Source: Prasinococcaceae sp. CCMP 1430
Lineage: Eukaryota; Plantae; Prasinodermophyta
NCBI GenBank assembly: GCA_013416795.1
Contig: RQSC01000010.1
Span: forward strand, 363,171 to 427,170
DNA length: 64,000 nucleotides
Direction of reading: 5' to 3'
Shown: positions 8,985-61,241 of the stretch, piece by piece
How the letters are laid out: the number at the start of each line of letters is the position of its first letter
How positions within the stretch are numbered: position 1 is the stretch's first letter
Position numbers and translations under genes: made by a program
Notes under the pieces: generated by a model
Told to the model about the DNA's origin: nothing
The model's input: only the letters and a program-made list of their open reading frames with translations
The model's database searches: none

Positions 8985-9265
8985 NNNNNNNNNNNNNNNN
9001 NNNNNNNNNNNNNNNNNNNNNNNNNNNNNNNNNNNNNNNNNNNNNNNNNNNNNNNNNNNNNNNNNNNNNNNNNNNNNNNNNNNNNNNNNNNNNNNNNNNN
9101 NNNNNNNNNNNNNNNNNNNNNNNNNNNNNNNNNNNNNNNNNNNNNNNNNNNNNNNNNNNNNNNNNNNNNNNNNNNNNNNNNNNNNNNNNNNNNNNNNNNN
9201 NNNNNNNNNNNNNNNNNNNNNNNNNNNNNNNNNNNNNNNNNNNNNNNNNNNNNNNNNNNNNNNNN
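8985..9265. other. Assembly gap (N run)
   Basis: Run of N. Confidence 1.
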
Positions 9266-13547: not shown

Positions 13548-14262
13548 TTTTCAACTTCCAATATCACCCAGCAAGGCCTTTGTCATTCATACCACAATCA
13601 GATTGATAGCCTTGGAAAATTTCCAACACAAAAGTCATTAGCTTTTCGTTCTCCAGGTCATCCAGCTTTGCTTGGAGAACGGGAACTGCAACTCCATATC
13701 TTCTGATATATCCACATTTAGAGACACTATTTATAGACATAACCCTTCGTTTGTTTCATTTTATGCTTAGCAGATACAGCCATGCCATTTAAAAAAACAG
13801 TGCAAATCGCTCTTCCAAATACGTACATCGTTATCTGCCACATTTTGTTCTAATTTGAAAAGTACATATAAAAACATAGCTTTAATAAAAACATAGCTTT
13901 AACTTTACACAGAAAAGAGATCAATACAGATAACCAAAGTGCCAAAGCCAAAATGTAATACTAGCTGATCATAGAAATATATGCATCAATACTGTGTATG
14001 TATATAACTAGTCGTTATGTTCAATTCTGATGCCAGACAAAACCAATATTTTAAAAATCTAGTTTTCTAGATAAGAGTATTGACAGAATTTTTAAGTCTG
14101 TTTTAGAAGTCTAATTTATAATAGATACACAATAGTGCATAAGATCATTAACTTAATTTTGACTTAACGAATTGCACACTATCACTATATTGATAGCTTA
14201 GTTTGTTTGTGAATCACAAAATAGATGGCTAGCACAGAAATAAGGCTTGATCTCATAAAATT

Positions 14263-14472
14263 NNNNNNNNNNNNNNNNNNNNNNNNNNNNNNNNNNNNNN
14301 NNNNNNNNNNNNNNNNNNNNNNNNNNNNNNNNNNNNNNNNNNNNNNNNNNNNNNNNNNNNNNNNNNNNNNNNNNNNNNNNNNNNNNNNNNNNNNNNNNNN
14401 NNNNNNNNNNNNNNNNNNNNNNNNNNNNNNNNNNNNNNNNNNNNNNNNNNNNNNNNNNNNNNNNNNNNNNNN
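14263..14472. other. Assembly gap (N run)
   Basis: Run of N flanked on both sides by TCATAAAATT. Confidence 1.
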
Positions 14473-56878: not shown

Positions 56879-57655
56879 GGCGGGTAGCGGGAATCGAACC
56901 CGCACCATTAGCTTGGAAGGCTATGAGTTATAGTCGTTGCTCATGATCAGCAACTCTATTCCAGAACCGGACGTGAGAGATTTCTTCTCATCCGGCTCCT
57001 CTGTCAGAAGCCAGAGACTGCAATTAATGTCTAGTCGAAAAAAAACAGTTTCTAGTTCCTTACAGCATCTACGTTGGCTTATTTACTTCCTAAGTGCTGG
57101 AAATAGCTTGCCTCTTAGATGATCCCTGTACGGTTTAGATATTCTTAATAGTCCCTTGCAATAGGGCATGCATTTTAGAGCTCTGAAGACCGCACTTATT
57201 TCGTTCCTTGTCTCTGTAATTGACCGTCTTTAGGGATGCTGCTTTTTTCCGGGCTGATAAAGGATGCACGATAACTTGGTAGACCAAGCTATTCCTGGTG
57301 TATAGCCCTGTAGTCTCCTGAAAGCAATCCTGACAGAGAGAGCCTAGTTACGGAAAATACCGTATGGGCTTTTCTACCCATAGACTTATTGGCCGCTGAT
57401 CAAGTAGCTGTCTTGGCAAAAGACTAGCTGTCCATAATCTGAAATCTCGCTTTAGATTAGAGTAGTGCTTCAAGTTGTCTCCAAACTCTCACTCTTATTC
57501 TAGAGATTTGGCCTTTCCTGTGGCATTAGCAGGAGTAGGTGTAAACCTACACAGAGAAAAAATTTCCAGGACTTAGTCCTGGTCACACTACCAGAACCTC
57601 TAACTAGAAAAGGTAGTACGAACGAATCACACTTCTACCACTAAACTATACCCGC
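56879..57655 (-). tRNA. trnG-UCC: tRNA-Gly(UCC), join(57655..57633,56926..56879), with group II intron 56927-57632
   Basis: Exon 1 GCGGGTATAGTTTAGTGGTAGAA then GTGTG; domain V GAGCCGGATGAG...ACGTCCGGTTC; ends CTATAAC; exon 2 TAGC-CTTCCAA-GCTA. Confidence 0.95.
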
Positions 57656-58229
57656 TCAACAAAGTATATTACAGAATGGCTGTAGATGCAATTCTAAATC
57701 TTCCGACATATATATATATATATTGCTGAAAATTGGCTAGCCTAAATCTAAGCCCCGGGATTGCTTAGAAGAGCGGAGCAAAAAGCTTATTTCTTTTCAA
57801 AAGCCTTGGGAGGGATGCTTTTTGGCAGTAAAGAACCTACAAAATGGTTAAGTATTTACTCTCAACATCTTTTTAAAAAAAAAGATATTGAGATATCTTG
57901 AAAAAAAGCTAGGTTAGGTTTCTATGGCTTTTTAAAAGCCCAGAATTATGTGACTTATCAACTGAGACTGAGTTGTGAGAGAATGCGTATGAAGGTTTTT
58001 TATAAAACAAAACATTAAGTCTCAAATTCAGACTGGCAGGGACCTCCGAAAATGTTCTTGTCATCTGATAACCGTGGCAAAGTGGTGCGCAACGCCCGTA
58101 TCAACCCTGCCCTCTTTGCCACAGTCCGTTTCCCAGAAAGTGCAAGCGTAGGGCGACCTCAGCCACTTTCTCCTAAGCACGCTTTCTCGGCTCCAGCCCT
58201 GGCAGAAGATTTTTCAGGAGGCTATTATC

Positions 58230-58322
58230 ATGTTTGAAAGAATTAGGCTAAAGCTGGTAGCCCTTGAAAAGACGCTAATCTTTCTGTCCAAAGCCACGAG
58301 TAAGCCCCCCCATAGAGCCTAG
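58230..58322 (+). CDS. Small hypothetical ORF (30 aa) with strong SD
   Basis: AGGAGG (58216-58221) then ATG; MFERIRLKLVALEKTLIFLSKATSKPPHRA. Confidence 0.3.
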   Translation: MFERIRLKLVALEKTLIFLSKATSKPPHRA

Positions 58323-58350
58323 AATATTCTATTTACTTACTGGAGGTCCA

Positions 58351-58920
58351 ATGGCACAGAATAATATCATACCCGGTGCTAGAAATCAAATGGCGCCGGT
58401 TTTGCTGAGTATGCACGATTTCGAAAAATATGGGCCAGAGCTTCCTGCGGTGGCTAAGCCTGGGGAAAAAGGGATTGAAATATCGGCTAGATTGGATGGT
58501 CAAATCTGTTGCATGGTGGTGTTAGCGGTCCTTTCTTATCAGTGTGAGCTCTCTGAACAGAACTTCCAAGCTTGCCTTCGCAAGAACTATGGCAGTAACT
58601 CTGCCAAACAATGCTCTGATCTGGAAAAAGTGATGTATCGATCTCGACTGGTTTTTCATTCGCTTATTCAGTCCAAAGAATGGCAATCCACCATGGGGGC
58701 GGAGAAAGAACAGCTTTGGTCCCAGGGGGAACGCTGGCCGTTATCTAAGTATGAGAAGAAGCTCTCTATCCCACCTGAGGAGAGGGTGAAGGAGGATGAA
58801 AGCCAGGCAGTGTACGTGAAACTCGGTGACCGCTATTTAAGGACATACTGTAACTGGATTCAGCATTGTGATTGTTGGGCAGAGCTTCGCGAAGCATCTG
58901 CTCTTTCTGCTGGGCTATGA
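58351..58920 (+). CDS. Hypothetical protein, 189 aa, not a recognised plastid gene
   Basis: Intact ORF with GGAGG SD at 58342-58346 and soluble-protein-like composition. Confidence 0.6.
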   Translation: MAQNNIIPGARNQMAPVLLSMHDFEKYGPELPAVAKPGEKGIEISARLDGQICCMVVLAVLSYQCELSEQNFQACLRKNYGSNSAKQCSDLEKVMYRSRLVFHSLIQSKEWQSTMGAEKEQLWSQGERWPLSKYEKKLSIPPEERVKEDESQAVYVKLGDRYLRTYCNWIQHCDCWAELREASALSAGL

Positions 58921-58936
58921 CTTCAGACTTTCTGTG

Positions 58937-59607
58937 ATGCATGATTCATTTGCCCCTGGCGCTAAGGTCGATGTGCCGTGTGCGCTACGAATAGCTTTGT
59001 CTGTTTGTTTGCTCATCAACCAAGATTTTCGAGTCATTGAAGGACTTAAGAAAATGAATAGTAATAGTATGGATGACCGGAACGACTGGCGGCCAGAGCC
59101 TGTCTTTATCCCACACCCTATCGTGAAAGCTGCTCAGATTATAGAAGGAGCATAGAAGTGGAAGTGGTGTTAACCGCTGAATTGTTTTGGCTTGACTATA
59201 GCATCTAAGTTGGGACTTGGTCTTTAATGCGCGGAGTCTGGACTATAAAGAAGGTCAACAGTGGTCTGGCTTCGGTTTAACAGAATTGGAATTGTTCTTG
59301 GATAGCCTGACCCCAGACGAAAGGCTAAGAATCTACATGACCCGAGAAAGACTGTTGCACTTCCTAGCTATAAAGTCTGCCTGCTATCCATCGGTATCAT
59401 TCATCTCCTCAGGAAGACTAGAAATCTGTTTGGTCCATTTTGCTTGAAGGATCTATCCTGACAGAACCAGGACAAGAGATAGCTGAAGACATGTTGGGTC
59501 GCGAGAATACAGACTCCTATATCCAGATGGCTAAAAGCTACCTAGACAGTTTGCCGTGGTCAAAAACGGACCCAGAGCTCCAGATGACAGTTGTGACTTG
59601 CACATAA
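58937..59607 (+). pseudogene. Possible fragmented foreign ORF(s) downstream of ORF189
   Basis: Successive co-oriented protein-like frames broken by stops and frameshifts (…AAQIIEG / IEVEVVLTAELFWLDY / LVFNARSLDY…LVHFA / GSILTEPGQEIAEDMLG…VVTCT). Confidence 0.35.
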
Positions 59608-59645
59608 CCGCCTGGGTGGGTTTTGCCGGAGCGCTACCCGGGAAT

Positions 59646-59676
59646 CCAAACACGCCCAGATTGGGCGTGCGTTTGG
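59646..59676 (-). terminator. Stem-loop 3' of atpA (could act in both directions)
   Basis: CCAAACACGCCCA-GAT-TGGGCGTGCGTTTGG. Confidence 0.65.
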
Positions 59677-59699
59677 GGGAAAATAGTTTATTTAGCAGA

Positions 59700-61241
59700 T
59701 TAGGCTACTACAGTTTTTTCTGCTTCTGCTTGCTGTAAAAAAACTTTTGTATATTGCTGAATAGCGGCTTTTAATGTCGACTGAGCCTCTGGGGTGAGGG
59801 TTTTTGTGGAGCGAATGATCTCTCCAAACTCGGGTTGGCTGCTAGCTATGTGTTCTCGGAGCTGGGTTAGAAATTTTCTGACCTGTCCAACCTCCAAAAC
59901 ATCGAGGTAACCATTGACACCGGTAAAAATAGTAGCTACTTGAGCTTCAATCACTAAAGGAGCTGCTTGAGCTTGCTTTAAGAGTTCACGAAGACGTTGT
60001 CCTCGTGCTAATTGGTTTTGAGTAGTTTTGTCTAGATCAGAAGCGAACTGCGCAAAGGCTTCCAATTCCGCAAATTGAGCAAGCTCAAGTTTGAGCTTAC
60101 CAGCCACCTGCTTCATAGCTTTAATTTGAGCCGCGGATCCAACTCGAGAAACCGAAATGCCTACATTAATGGCCGGACGAATTCCAGCATTGAACAAATC
60201 TGCTGAAAGGAAAATTTGTCCATCGGTGATCGAAATAACATTGGTAGGAATATATGCCGAGACATCACCAGCTTGAGTTTCGACAATAGGTAAAGCAGTC
60301 ATGCTGCCCTCCCCTAGCTGAGTGCTTAACTTGGCAGCTCTTTCAAGTAAGCGAGAGTGGAGATAGAATACATCTCCCGGATAAGCTTCACGACCTGGTG
60401 GACGTCGCAAAAGCAAAGACATTTGACGGTATGCTTGAGCCTGTTTGGAAAGGTCATCATAAACGACCAAGGTGTGTTGGCCCCGATACATGAAATACTC
60501 GGCTAAAGCTGCTCCGGTGTAAGGAGCCAGGTATTGTAGGGTAGCTGGTGCATTTGCGGTCTCAGCTACGACAATTGTGTACTCCATGGCTCCACGTTCT
60601 TCGAAGGTATTGACTACTTGAGCCACAGAAGAAGCTTTTTGACCAATAGCTACATAAACACAAACTACTTGTTGCCCTTTTTGGTTTAAGATTGTATCTG
60701 TAGCTACTGCAGTTTTCCCAGTTTGCCTATCTCCAATAATGAGTTCACGCTGTCCGCGCCCAATTGGAATCATAGCATCAATAGCAATTAGACCTGTTTG
60801 CATAGGTTCATATACCGAGCGCCTGGAAATAATCCCAGGTGCAGGGGACTCGATGAGCCGGAATTCCGTTGCAGCAATGTCACCTTTGCCGTCAATGGGA
60901 CGAGCAAGAGCATTGACTACCCGTCCTAAGTATCCTTCGCTGACAGGAATTTGAGCAATTTTCCCAGTAGCCTTGACCGAGCTTCCCTCTTGAATGGTGA
61001 GGCCGTCACCCATTAGCACGGCGCCGACATTGTCTGATTCTAAGTTCAAAGCAATGCCCACTGTACCATCCGCAAACTCAAGCAGCTCTCCTGCCATGAC
61101 TTTATCAAGGCCGTAGATTCGAGCAATTCCATCTCCTACTTGTAGTACGGTACCAATATTAAGGACCTTCACTTCCTGGGTATATTGCTCAATTTGTTTG
61201 CGAATGATGCTGCTTATCTCATCGGGTCGGATGTTTACCAT
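59700..61241 (-). CDS. atpA: ATP synthase CF1 alpha subunit
   Basis: GDRQTGKT Walker A; [21 protein letters not shown]. Confidence 0.99.

What the first reader, a model, noticed from the sequence alone, without database searches (positions are those of the whole stretch)
57700..59640. Foreign-looking, operon-like ORF block inserted between trnG and atpA
Seen: about 1.6 kb of co-oriented plus-strand frames, comprising a 61-aa ORF, a 30-aa ORF behind a perfect AGGAGG, an intact 189-aa ORF behind GGAGG, and then frames broken by frameshifts. It looks more GC-balanced than the neighbouring spacers (not computed). None of the ORFs resembles a standard plastid gene I recognise. Established: in land-plant-type plastomes trnG and trnR-UCU lie next to atpA on the opposite strand; here they are inverted and displaced, so the block sits at a breakpoint. 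Phage- or plasmid-like insertions are reported in some zygnematophyte plastomes. Inference: this is a horizontally acquired virus, plasmid or mitochondrial-plasmid remnant whose upstream ORF is still intact.
Basis: partly seen in the sequence, partly recalled or inferred. Interest (0 to 1): 0.75.

Follow-up and report, generated by a model that had tools for sequence, protein, structure and literature searches.

The report
Decaying foreign genes in algal chloroplast
A green alga's chloroplast genome carries a real 1.6-kb stretch of gene-like DNA with no known relatives and almost no transcripts, most likely a decaying insertion from an unidentified phage, bacterium or mobile element, of a kind already reported in algal and fern chloroplasts.

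Summary
The 2,044-nt trnG–atpA spacer of this Mesotaenium-like plastome is the longest and most GC-rich of 25 spacers measured (block 46.9% GC, others 36.3%). It holds a 189-codon ORF behind GGAGGT (p≈0.001 against shuffles). A plus-strand coding signal runs through about four frameshifts to 59607 (z 5.2 plus strand, −0.6 minus). The block lies on the same contigs as trnG and atpA at plastid depth, with no differences, so it is not an artefact. ORF189's GC3 (0.46) is above native genes (0.34), which points to foreign origin. No homologue, domain, fold, RNA family or terminal repeat was found, so the virus/plasmid label is unproven. In the best RNA run ORF189 has about 1% of atpA's depth, and the block is covered equally on both strands; one shallow run shows a few sense reads. 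ORF189 may be the 5′ stub of a longer broken gene. Best reading: a near-silent, decaying foreign insertion at the trnG–trnR inversion end. It resembles fern MORFFOs in anatomy, with no homology shown. The scan noted a similar case in a Chlorella-family plastome (unchecked). Low to moderate interest.

The parts
58020..59607 (+). Gene-like block, likely a foreign insertion; ends approximate, set by composition
   Evidence: GC 46.9%, few A/T runs, CDS-like Markov score; frameshift-tolerant coding score z 5.2 on +, -0.6 on -
58052..58237 (+). ORF61, orphan, no clear Shine-Dalgarno; codon score favours this frame, but the 5' part as a whole is not significant (z 1.4)
   Evidence: no family at the curated cut-offs or E<0.01
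58216..58322 (+). AGGAGG (58216-58221) and ORF30 (58230-58322); probably chance
   Evidence: 10% of shuffles give such an ORF
58342..58920 (+). GGAGGT (58342-58347) and ORF189 (58351-58920), orphan; either a whole gene or the 5' stub of a longer broken gene
   Evidence: no homologue; exact sequence not in the protein collection; AlphaFold pLDDT 35 without alignment
58937..59607 (+). Pseudogene-like stretch; the best coding path changes frame near 59154, 59201, 59424 and perhaps 59537
   Evidence: (z 3.65, 0 of 300 shuffles as high); breaks identical in contigs of 4 runs
59610..59676 (.). Two GC-rich hairpins between the block's 3' end and the atpA 3' end; atpA read ends pile up at 59671-59676
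   Evidence: z -1.5 and -2.0, hairpins picked by eye; table 6
56879..57655 (-). trnG-UCC with group II intron; left neighbour, transcribed away from the block
56733..56805 (-). trnR-UCU
59700..61241 (-). atpA; right neighbour, convergent with the block's ORFs

Best explanation
The block is real plastid DNA with a plus-strand protein-coding signal and no detectable relatives, and it is most likely a foreign gene fragment that was captured at the trnG-trnR inversion end and is now decaying without function. Likely mechanism (inferred): a double-strand break at this rearrangement end was repaired by illegitimate end-joining that took in about 1.6 kb from a donor with bacterial-type translation signals (phage, bacterium or a plastid-resident element). 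It landed opposite to both neighbours, between the trnG promoter region and the atpA 3' hairpins, so it gets no read-through. It carries no mobility gene or terminal repeats and has since gathered about four frameshifts. ORF189 would be the stretch not yet hit, or the 5' stub of a gene of roughly 415 codons. Shown: presence, coding signal, composition, breaks, low RNA cover. Inferred: foreign origin, capture route, donor type, lack of function.
For: ORF length p 0.0005-0.002. Coding signal is strand-specific: ORF189 z 3.7, 3' part z 3.65, whole block z 5.2; minus strand -0.6 to 0.06. Highest GC and longest of 25 spacers. GC3 at synonymous codons 82 of 178 (0.46) against native 0.34, binomial p 0.0008; decay of native DNA would drift towards 36%. 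No blastn or tblastx match to window genes. Single contigs span trnG intron, block and atpA with 0 differences in X1, X4, X8 and X11; depth in the deep DNA run X20 is about 14,000-16,000 on the block, as on ycf2 and atpA. No second copy at 80% identity or more was laid on 58701-59900 in any of the 4 runs. RNA run X23: ORF189 sense depth about 0.7 against atpA about 74 and trnG intron about 26; block mean 1.7 on each strand (means of bins). Same kind reported in zygnematophyte plastomes (PMC4877394) and ferns (PMC13000998).
Against: No donor or homologue was found, so foreign origin rests on composition alone. Dinucleotide odds of the block are close to native CDS, and GC3 of the short frames is significant in only 1 of 4. 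In RNA run X24 (46 reads in all) sense depth on 57901-58500 is 2-3, above atpA (about 0.6) in that run. The libraries are poly-A selected, only 6-12% of each run was read, and the 5' end of ycf2, a real gene, also has depth under 3. No relative's locus was obtained, so timing relative to the inversion is untested.
Confidence: 0.68

Rival explanations
1. The block came from inside the cell (mitochondrion, nucleus) or is a native plastid or intron-encoded gene that has diverged beyond recognition.
For: Dinucleotide odds resemble native CDS. Mitochondrion-to-chloroplast transfer is reported in Gloeotilopsis (PMC5630911, abstract). Gene losses often sit at synteny breakpoints in charophyte plastomes (PMC4877394 passages). 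Small extra contigs lie on 57901-58700 in X20.
Against: No Pfam or NCBIfam family of any plastid, mitochondrial, maturase or RT protein. 0 hits among 1.84 billion representatives. No Rfam intron domain in 57600-59750. No second copy laid on 58701-59900. GC3 is above, not below, native level.
Confidence: 0.15
2. ORF189 is a maintained gene of a selfish, MORFFO-like plastid element, or a newly recruited plastid gene, expressed at low level or under particular conditions, while the downstream gene has died.
For: 570 nt without a break next to 670 nt with 3-4 breaks; a good Shine-Dalgarno motif that plastid ribosomes could read; a few sense reads over 57901-58500 in X24; terminator-like hairpins at the 3' end. 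MORFFOs show purifying selection with frequent pseudogenisation (PMC13000998 section 22).
Against: At 3 breaks per 670 nt, an unbroken 570 nt is expected about 8% of the time (Poisson arithmetic), so selection is not needed. Sense depth on ORF189 is under 1 in most bins of all three raw RNA runs. The one plus-strand promoter-like site found is at chance level (2 found on both strands, 2.6 expected). No copy elsewhere in the window.
Confidence: 0.12
3. Ordinary spacer DNA with a chance long ORF.
For: About 25 spacers were open to such a chance; language-model recognition score 2229 is below the 2300 that most known families reach; AlphaFold confidence is low.
Against: ORF length, Shine-Dalgarno motif, an independent coding signal in the 3' part and the composition all point the same way; the longest ATG ORF in the other 24 spacers is 66 aa.
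Confidence: 0.04
4. Assembly chimera or contaminant DNA.
For: This assembly has N gaps and a suspect ndhB/16S junction elsewhere.
Against: Four runs give single contigs across both junctions with 0 differences; depth in the deep DNA run equals that of plastid genes; 20 of 24 listed runs in 7 studies hold 0.99-1.00 of the words (8 are flagged as possible source of this DNA).
Confidence: 0.01

Closest known systems
MORFFO elements of fern plastomes and Roya orf230 (PMC13000998; PMC7338519; PMC4877394)
   Same: Orphan ORFs in an intergenic spacer, opposite to flanking operons, near a tRNA gene and an inversion end, codon usage unlike native genes, frequent pseudogenisation.
   Different: No sequence homology shown. 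The MORFFO paper's 3 supplement files name Roya plastomes and a Zygnema mitochondrion but Mesotaenium 0 times. Single locus; no evidence of mobility or selection.
Phage-type integrase (PF00589) and D5 primase (PF08706) ORFs of zygnematophyte plastomes: Spirogyra orf659, Netrium orf132, Roya orf268, Staurastrum orf108 (PMC4877394 Table 2)
   Same: Same algal class; free-standing non-standard ORFs in a heavily rearranged plastome, read as foreign gains.
   Different: No such domain here; for Mesotaenium that table lists only matK.
Unidentified ORFs in expanded spacers of the Klebsormidium flaccidum plastome (PMC4007539 passages)
   Same: Long ORFs without database matches in the largest spacers of a charophyte plastome.
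   Different: Those are 1.4-6 kb long; this one is 570 nt plus a frameshifted remnant.

Membership tests
MORFFO | Sequence homology to morffo1-5 or Roya orf230 | tested here: inconclusive
   No direct comparison was possible (sequences not retrievable by these tools). Indirect: 0 hits; Mesotaenium absent from the paper's supplement files.
MORFFO | Intergenic, opposite to flanking operons, near tRNA or inversion end | tested here: met
   ORFs on +, trnG and atpA on -; the inversion itself rests on recalled ancestral order
MORFFO | Codon usage unlike native plastid genes | tested here: met
   ORF189 GC3 0.46 against 0.34, p 0.0008; significant in 1 of 4 short frames
MORFFO | Variable position across relatives and purifying selection | not testable with these tools
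   All laid contigs are identical to the window over the block; no relative's locus was obtained
MORFFO | Transcribed | tested here: inconclusive
   Background-level, both-strand cover in X22 and X23; a few sense reads in X24; poly-A libraries only
Phage integrase / D5 primase ORFs of zygnematophyte plastomes | PF00589, PF00665 or PF08706 domain | tested here: not met
   Pfam and PHROGs scans of 10 frames and NCBIfam scan of 7: best E 0.073, 0.029 and 0.02, none of these families
Insertion sequence / transposon / linear organellar plasmid | Transposase, or PolB/RNA polymerase gene | tested here: not met
Insertion sequence / transposon / linear organellar plasmid | Terminal inverted repeats or target-site duplication at the block's ends | tested here: not met
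   no repeat pair of 12 nt or more joins the two ends (the 20-nt pair D5 has one copy inside atpA)
Group I/II intron remnant with maturase or endonuclease | Intron RNA domains or RT/maturase/homing-endonuclease domain | tested here: not met
   Rfam: 0 matches at E up to 1 in 57600-59750; no such protein family

The most novel reading that the evidence does not exclude
The block is the trace of an undescribed plastid-dwelling virus or selfish element of conjugating algae, an algal counterpart of MORFFO, with Shine-Dalgarno-led genes of a protein family absent from current databases; ORF189 may still be weakly expressed.
Probability: 0.15. Interest if true: 0.55.

Novelty: new member of a known kind. 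Interest (0 to 1): 0.25.

Why it matters
Plastomes rarely take up foreign DNA, and invading elements have been proposed as drivers of the heavy rearrangement of zygnematophyte plastomes (PMC4007539 passages; disputed in PMC4877394). [quoted passage not shown] The exact ORF189 protein is not in the 15-billion collection, whereas this genome's AtpA is. Without a donor, a homologue or expression, it is one more data point and does not test that idea. It would matter more if relatives turned up intact copies that define a new plastid-invading element.

Tried and rejected
No whole genome is held for this window, so the rest of the plastome, the mitochondrion and the nucleus could not be searched. 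ORF189: 158 candidates, none at E<=1; 0 hits at E<=0.001 among 1.84 billion; none in viral contigs, GTDB genomes, phage or plasmid records; PDB sequences best E 0.41. The 81-aa and 72-aa frames against longer proteins: none (weak searches). The 81-, 104- and 61-aa frames in viral contigs: none. blastn of the spacer against phages and plasmids: none. Two pattern-selected hits were rejected as chance. L001 is a 31-bit match around the search word, inside what looks like a TonB C-terminal-type protein (label recalled). L002 is a 26-bit match over 26 aa in a 79-codon frame. ESM Atlas gave CX9C/Cmc1/CHCH-type clusters at 0.78-0.83, under the 0.9 lead level; ORF189 has one CX9C spacing, not a twin motif, so this was rejected. 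The 72-aa frame gave no usable Atlas hit. The AlphaFold model is too poor (pLDDT 35); Foldseek on BFVD gave 0 at E<=0.001, which is uninformative; PDB fold searches were therefore not run. PADLOC: 0 of 7. No RNA holder listed by the run index. Poly-A loose ends at 57875-57883 sit on a genomic A-run and were taken as junk. Literature: 'MORFFO'+'Mesotaenium' 0 papers; 'Mesotaenium'+'endogenous'+'giant virus'+'Nucleocytoviricota' 0; one search listed 3 papers, of which I read passages of two, and these do not mention this spacer. PMC3087542 passages gave no gene-order support. One supplement file of PMC4007539 could not be searched, and figures with gene maps are not held, so an unlabelled ORF on a published map cannot be excluded.

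Full report
Context. The window is a streptophyte plastome (psbD, petB/D, ndh genes, chlB, rbcL, tilS, ycf2, atp operon; names from the translations, by recall). GC is 41.8%. It has group II introns in atpF, ndhA, ndhB, petB and trnG (with the ORF lists) and an intron-less trnA-UGC. This fits the published description of Mesotaenium endlicherianum (42% GC, same intron pattern; PMC4007539, Table 2 passage and section 12). It does not fit the Klebsormidiophyceae, which lost trnG-UCC and both trnT (PMC4877394 passage). The species is an inference. The exact AtpA is in UniRef/NCBI nr, but ORF189, ORF61 and the 72-aa frame are not in the collection. No whole genome is held.

Observation. The spacer 57656-59699 is the longest (2,044 nt) and most GC-rich (44.9%) of 25 spacers over 250 nt; feature limits were my approximate annotation. 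The block 57980-59640 is 46.9% GC against 36.3% for the other 24 pooled, and has 0.6 A/T runs per kb against 5.1. An order-2 Markov score puts ORF61, ORF189 and the 3' part with coding DNA and 57660-58020 with spacers. An ATG ORF of 189 aa or more arose in 0.05-0.2% of 2000 shuffles; the longest ATG ORF in other spacers is 66 aa. A frameshift-tolerant codon score gave z 3.7 for ORF189, 3.65 for 58937-59607, 1.4 for 58020-58350 and 5.2 for the whole block on +, and -1.05 to 0.06 on -. Of 8 control scores 7 were under 1.6 and one reached 2.7. The best path changes frame near 58912, 59154, 59201, 59424 and 59537. ORF30 is not supported.

Is it real DNA of this plastome? 20 of 24 listed runs in 7 studies hold 0.99-1.00 of the words; 8 are flagged as a possible source. 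Single contigs cover trnG intron, block and atpA with 0 differences in X1, X4, X8 and X11. In the deep DNA run X20 block contigs have depth about 14,000-16,000, like ycf2 and atpA. The frameshifts are therefore genomic. In X4, X8 and X11 this plastome is a minor component (depth 12-20 beside other plastid pieces in the thousands), and all are identical. They show presence, not strain diversity. On 58701-59900 no second contig at 80% identity or more was laid in any of the four runs, which argues against a recent mitochondrial or nuclear donor copy of that part. Contigs can drop such copies, and extra small contigs lie on 57901-58700 in X20.

Expression. All three raw RNA runs are poly-A selected and 6-12% of each was read. 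First-mate-plus reads cover atpA and trnG, fixing the orientation. Bin means for X23: atpA 74, trnG intron 26, ORF189 sense 0.7, block 1.7 sense and 1.7 antisense, opposite strand over atpA 2.9. For X22: atpA 2.3, trnG intron 15, block 0.33 and 0.23. For X24 (46 reads): atpA 0.6, block sense 1.2 (2-3 on 57901-58500), antisense 0.2. atpA read ends pile up at 59671-59676 and trnG reads stop near 57646, so neither neighbour reads through. Two runs show background only; X24 is a small hint the other way; ycf2's 5' end is also under depth 3, so silence is not proven.

Identity. Nothing names the proteins: Pfam and PHROGs (10 frames), NCBIfam and PADLOC (7 frames) gave nothing better than E 0.02. 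ORF189 had 0 hits in the 5.8-billion word search and among 1.84 billion representatives. Viral, metagenome, GTDB, phage and plasmid scans gave only two pattern-selected chance hits, rejected on inspection. Atlas and fold searches were uninformative. There is no Rfam match, no terminal repeat and no copy elsewhere in the window. Searches with the short frames are weak.

Mechanism. Shown: a one-strand coding signal, composition unlike spacers, ORF189 GC3 0.46 against native 0.34 (p 0.0008), breaks, and low RNA cover. Inferred: DNA that decayed in place would drift toward 36% GC and gain A/T runs, so this arrived from outside fairly recently, yet long enough ago to gather about four frameshifts. 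GGAGGT before the one long ORF (chance about 1% from block composition) suggests a donor using 70S-type initiation: phage, bacterium or plastid-resident element. In land-plant-type plastomes trnG and trnR point toward the atpA 3' end with trnR nearest (recalled). Here the pair is flipped, and ycf12, recalled as trnG's usual neighbour, lies near 13.5 kb, so the block sits at a rearrangement end. Capture during break repair is the simplest route, since no mobility gene or repeat is present. Whether capture and inversion were one event is untested. ORF189 need not be under selection: at 3 breaks per 670 nt an unbroken 570 nt has about 8% chance. The next frame opens within its last 26 codons and has no Shine-Dalgarno motif at its ATG, so ORF189 may be the 5' stub of one longer gene.

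Comparison. It resembles fern MORFFOs in anatomy: opposite orientation to flanking operons, deviant codon usage, pseudogenisation (PMC13000998 abstract and sections 22, 24, 29), and position near tRNAs and inversions (PMC7338519 passages). Membership is not shown; Mesotaenium occurs 0 times in that paper's three supplement files while Roya and Zygnema do. It is not one of the integrase or primase ORFs of zygnematophyte plastomes (PMC4877394 section 16). An earlier, unchecked note of this scan describes a like case in a Chlorella-family plastome; no look-alike sequence was noted.

Verdict. Observation confirmed; interpretation partly supported. It is most likely a near-silent, decaying foreign insertion of unknown donor (0.68), a new member of a known kind. 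Interest 0.25. The most novel reading, a trace of an undescribed plastid-invading element, has probability about 0.15 and interest 0.55 if true.

Noticed in passing
window 32322-32660: The 5' ~300 nt of 16S rRNA (minus strand, Rfam model positions 55-353) abuts ndhB exon 2, whose normal C-terminus is replaced by read-through into the 16S piece. The rest of 16S is not in the window. Probably a misjoin in this assembly, possibly a real deletion.
   Followed up: partly
window 49276: A single N with a frame change splits ycf2 into 2341-aa and 405-aa ORFs; short repeats follow. Likely an assembly artefact. Two further N gaps at 8985-9265 and 14263-14472.
   Followed up: partly
window 53300-54900 (minus strand): ycf2 carries a very long acidic low-complexity insert (E/D/T/I/K repeats, several hundred residues), giving long stop-free frames on the plus strand.
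   Followed up: no
window 24270-27590: rDNA operon is broken: intron-less trnA-UGC, 23S and 5S lie together without 16S or trnI upstream, as described for Zygnematophyceae.
   Followed up: partly
window 46712-47400 (minus strand): A control spacer (tilS-trnD) scored z 2.7 for coding signal; no frame there exceeds 68 codons. Chance or another faint remnant.
   Followed up: partly
window 56931-56964: RNA run X24 and DNA run X20 hold a short piece of the trnG intron joined to foreign letters on the flank(s), suggesting a nuclear plastid-derived insertion that is transcribed.
   Followed up: no
window 57723 to 56437: One contig of run X4 joins these places with 10 extra letters, at the end of the TA run (table 5c); seen once, perhaps a chimera.
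   Followed up: no
window 57660-57693 (minus strand): TTGCAT-17 nt-TATACT just upstream of trnG, read by eye; a likely trnG promoter missed by the scan's threshold.
   Followed up: no
window 58071-58125: A stem-loop inside ORF61 (arms 58071-58085 and 58111-58125; fold z -2.6, 3 of 200 shuffles as good; region picked from the repeat list).
   Followed up: partly
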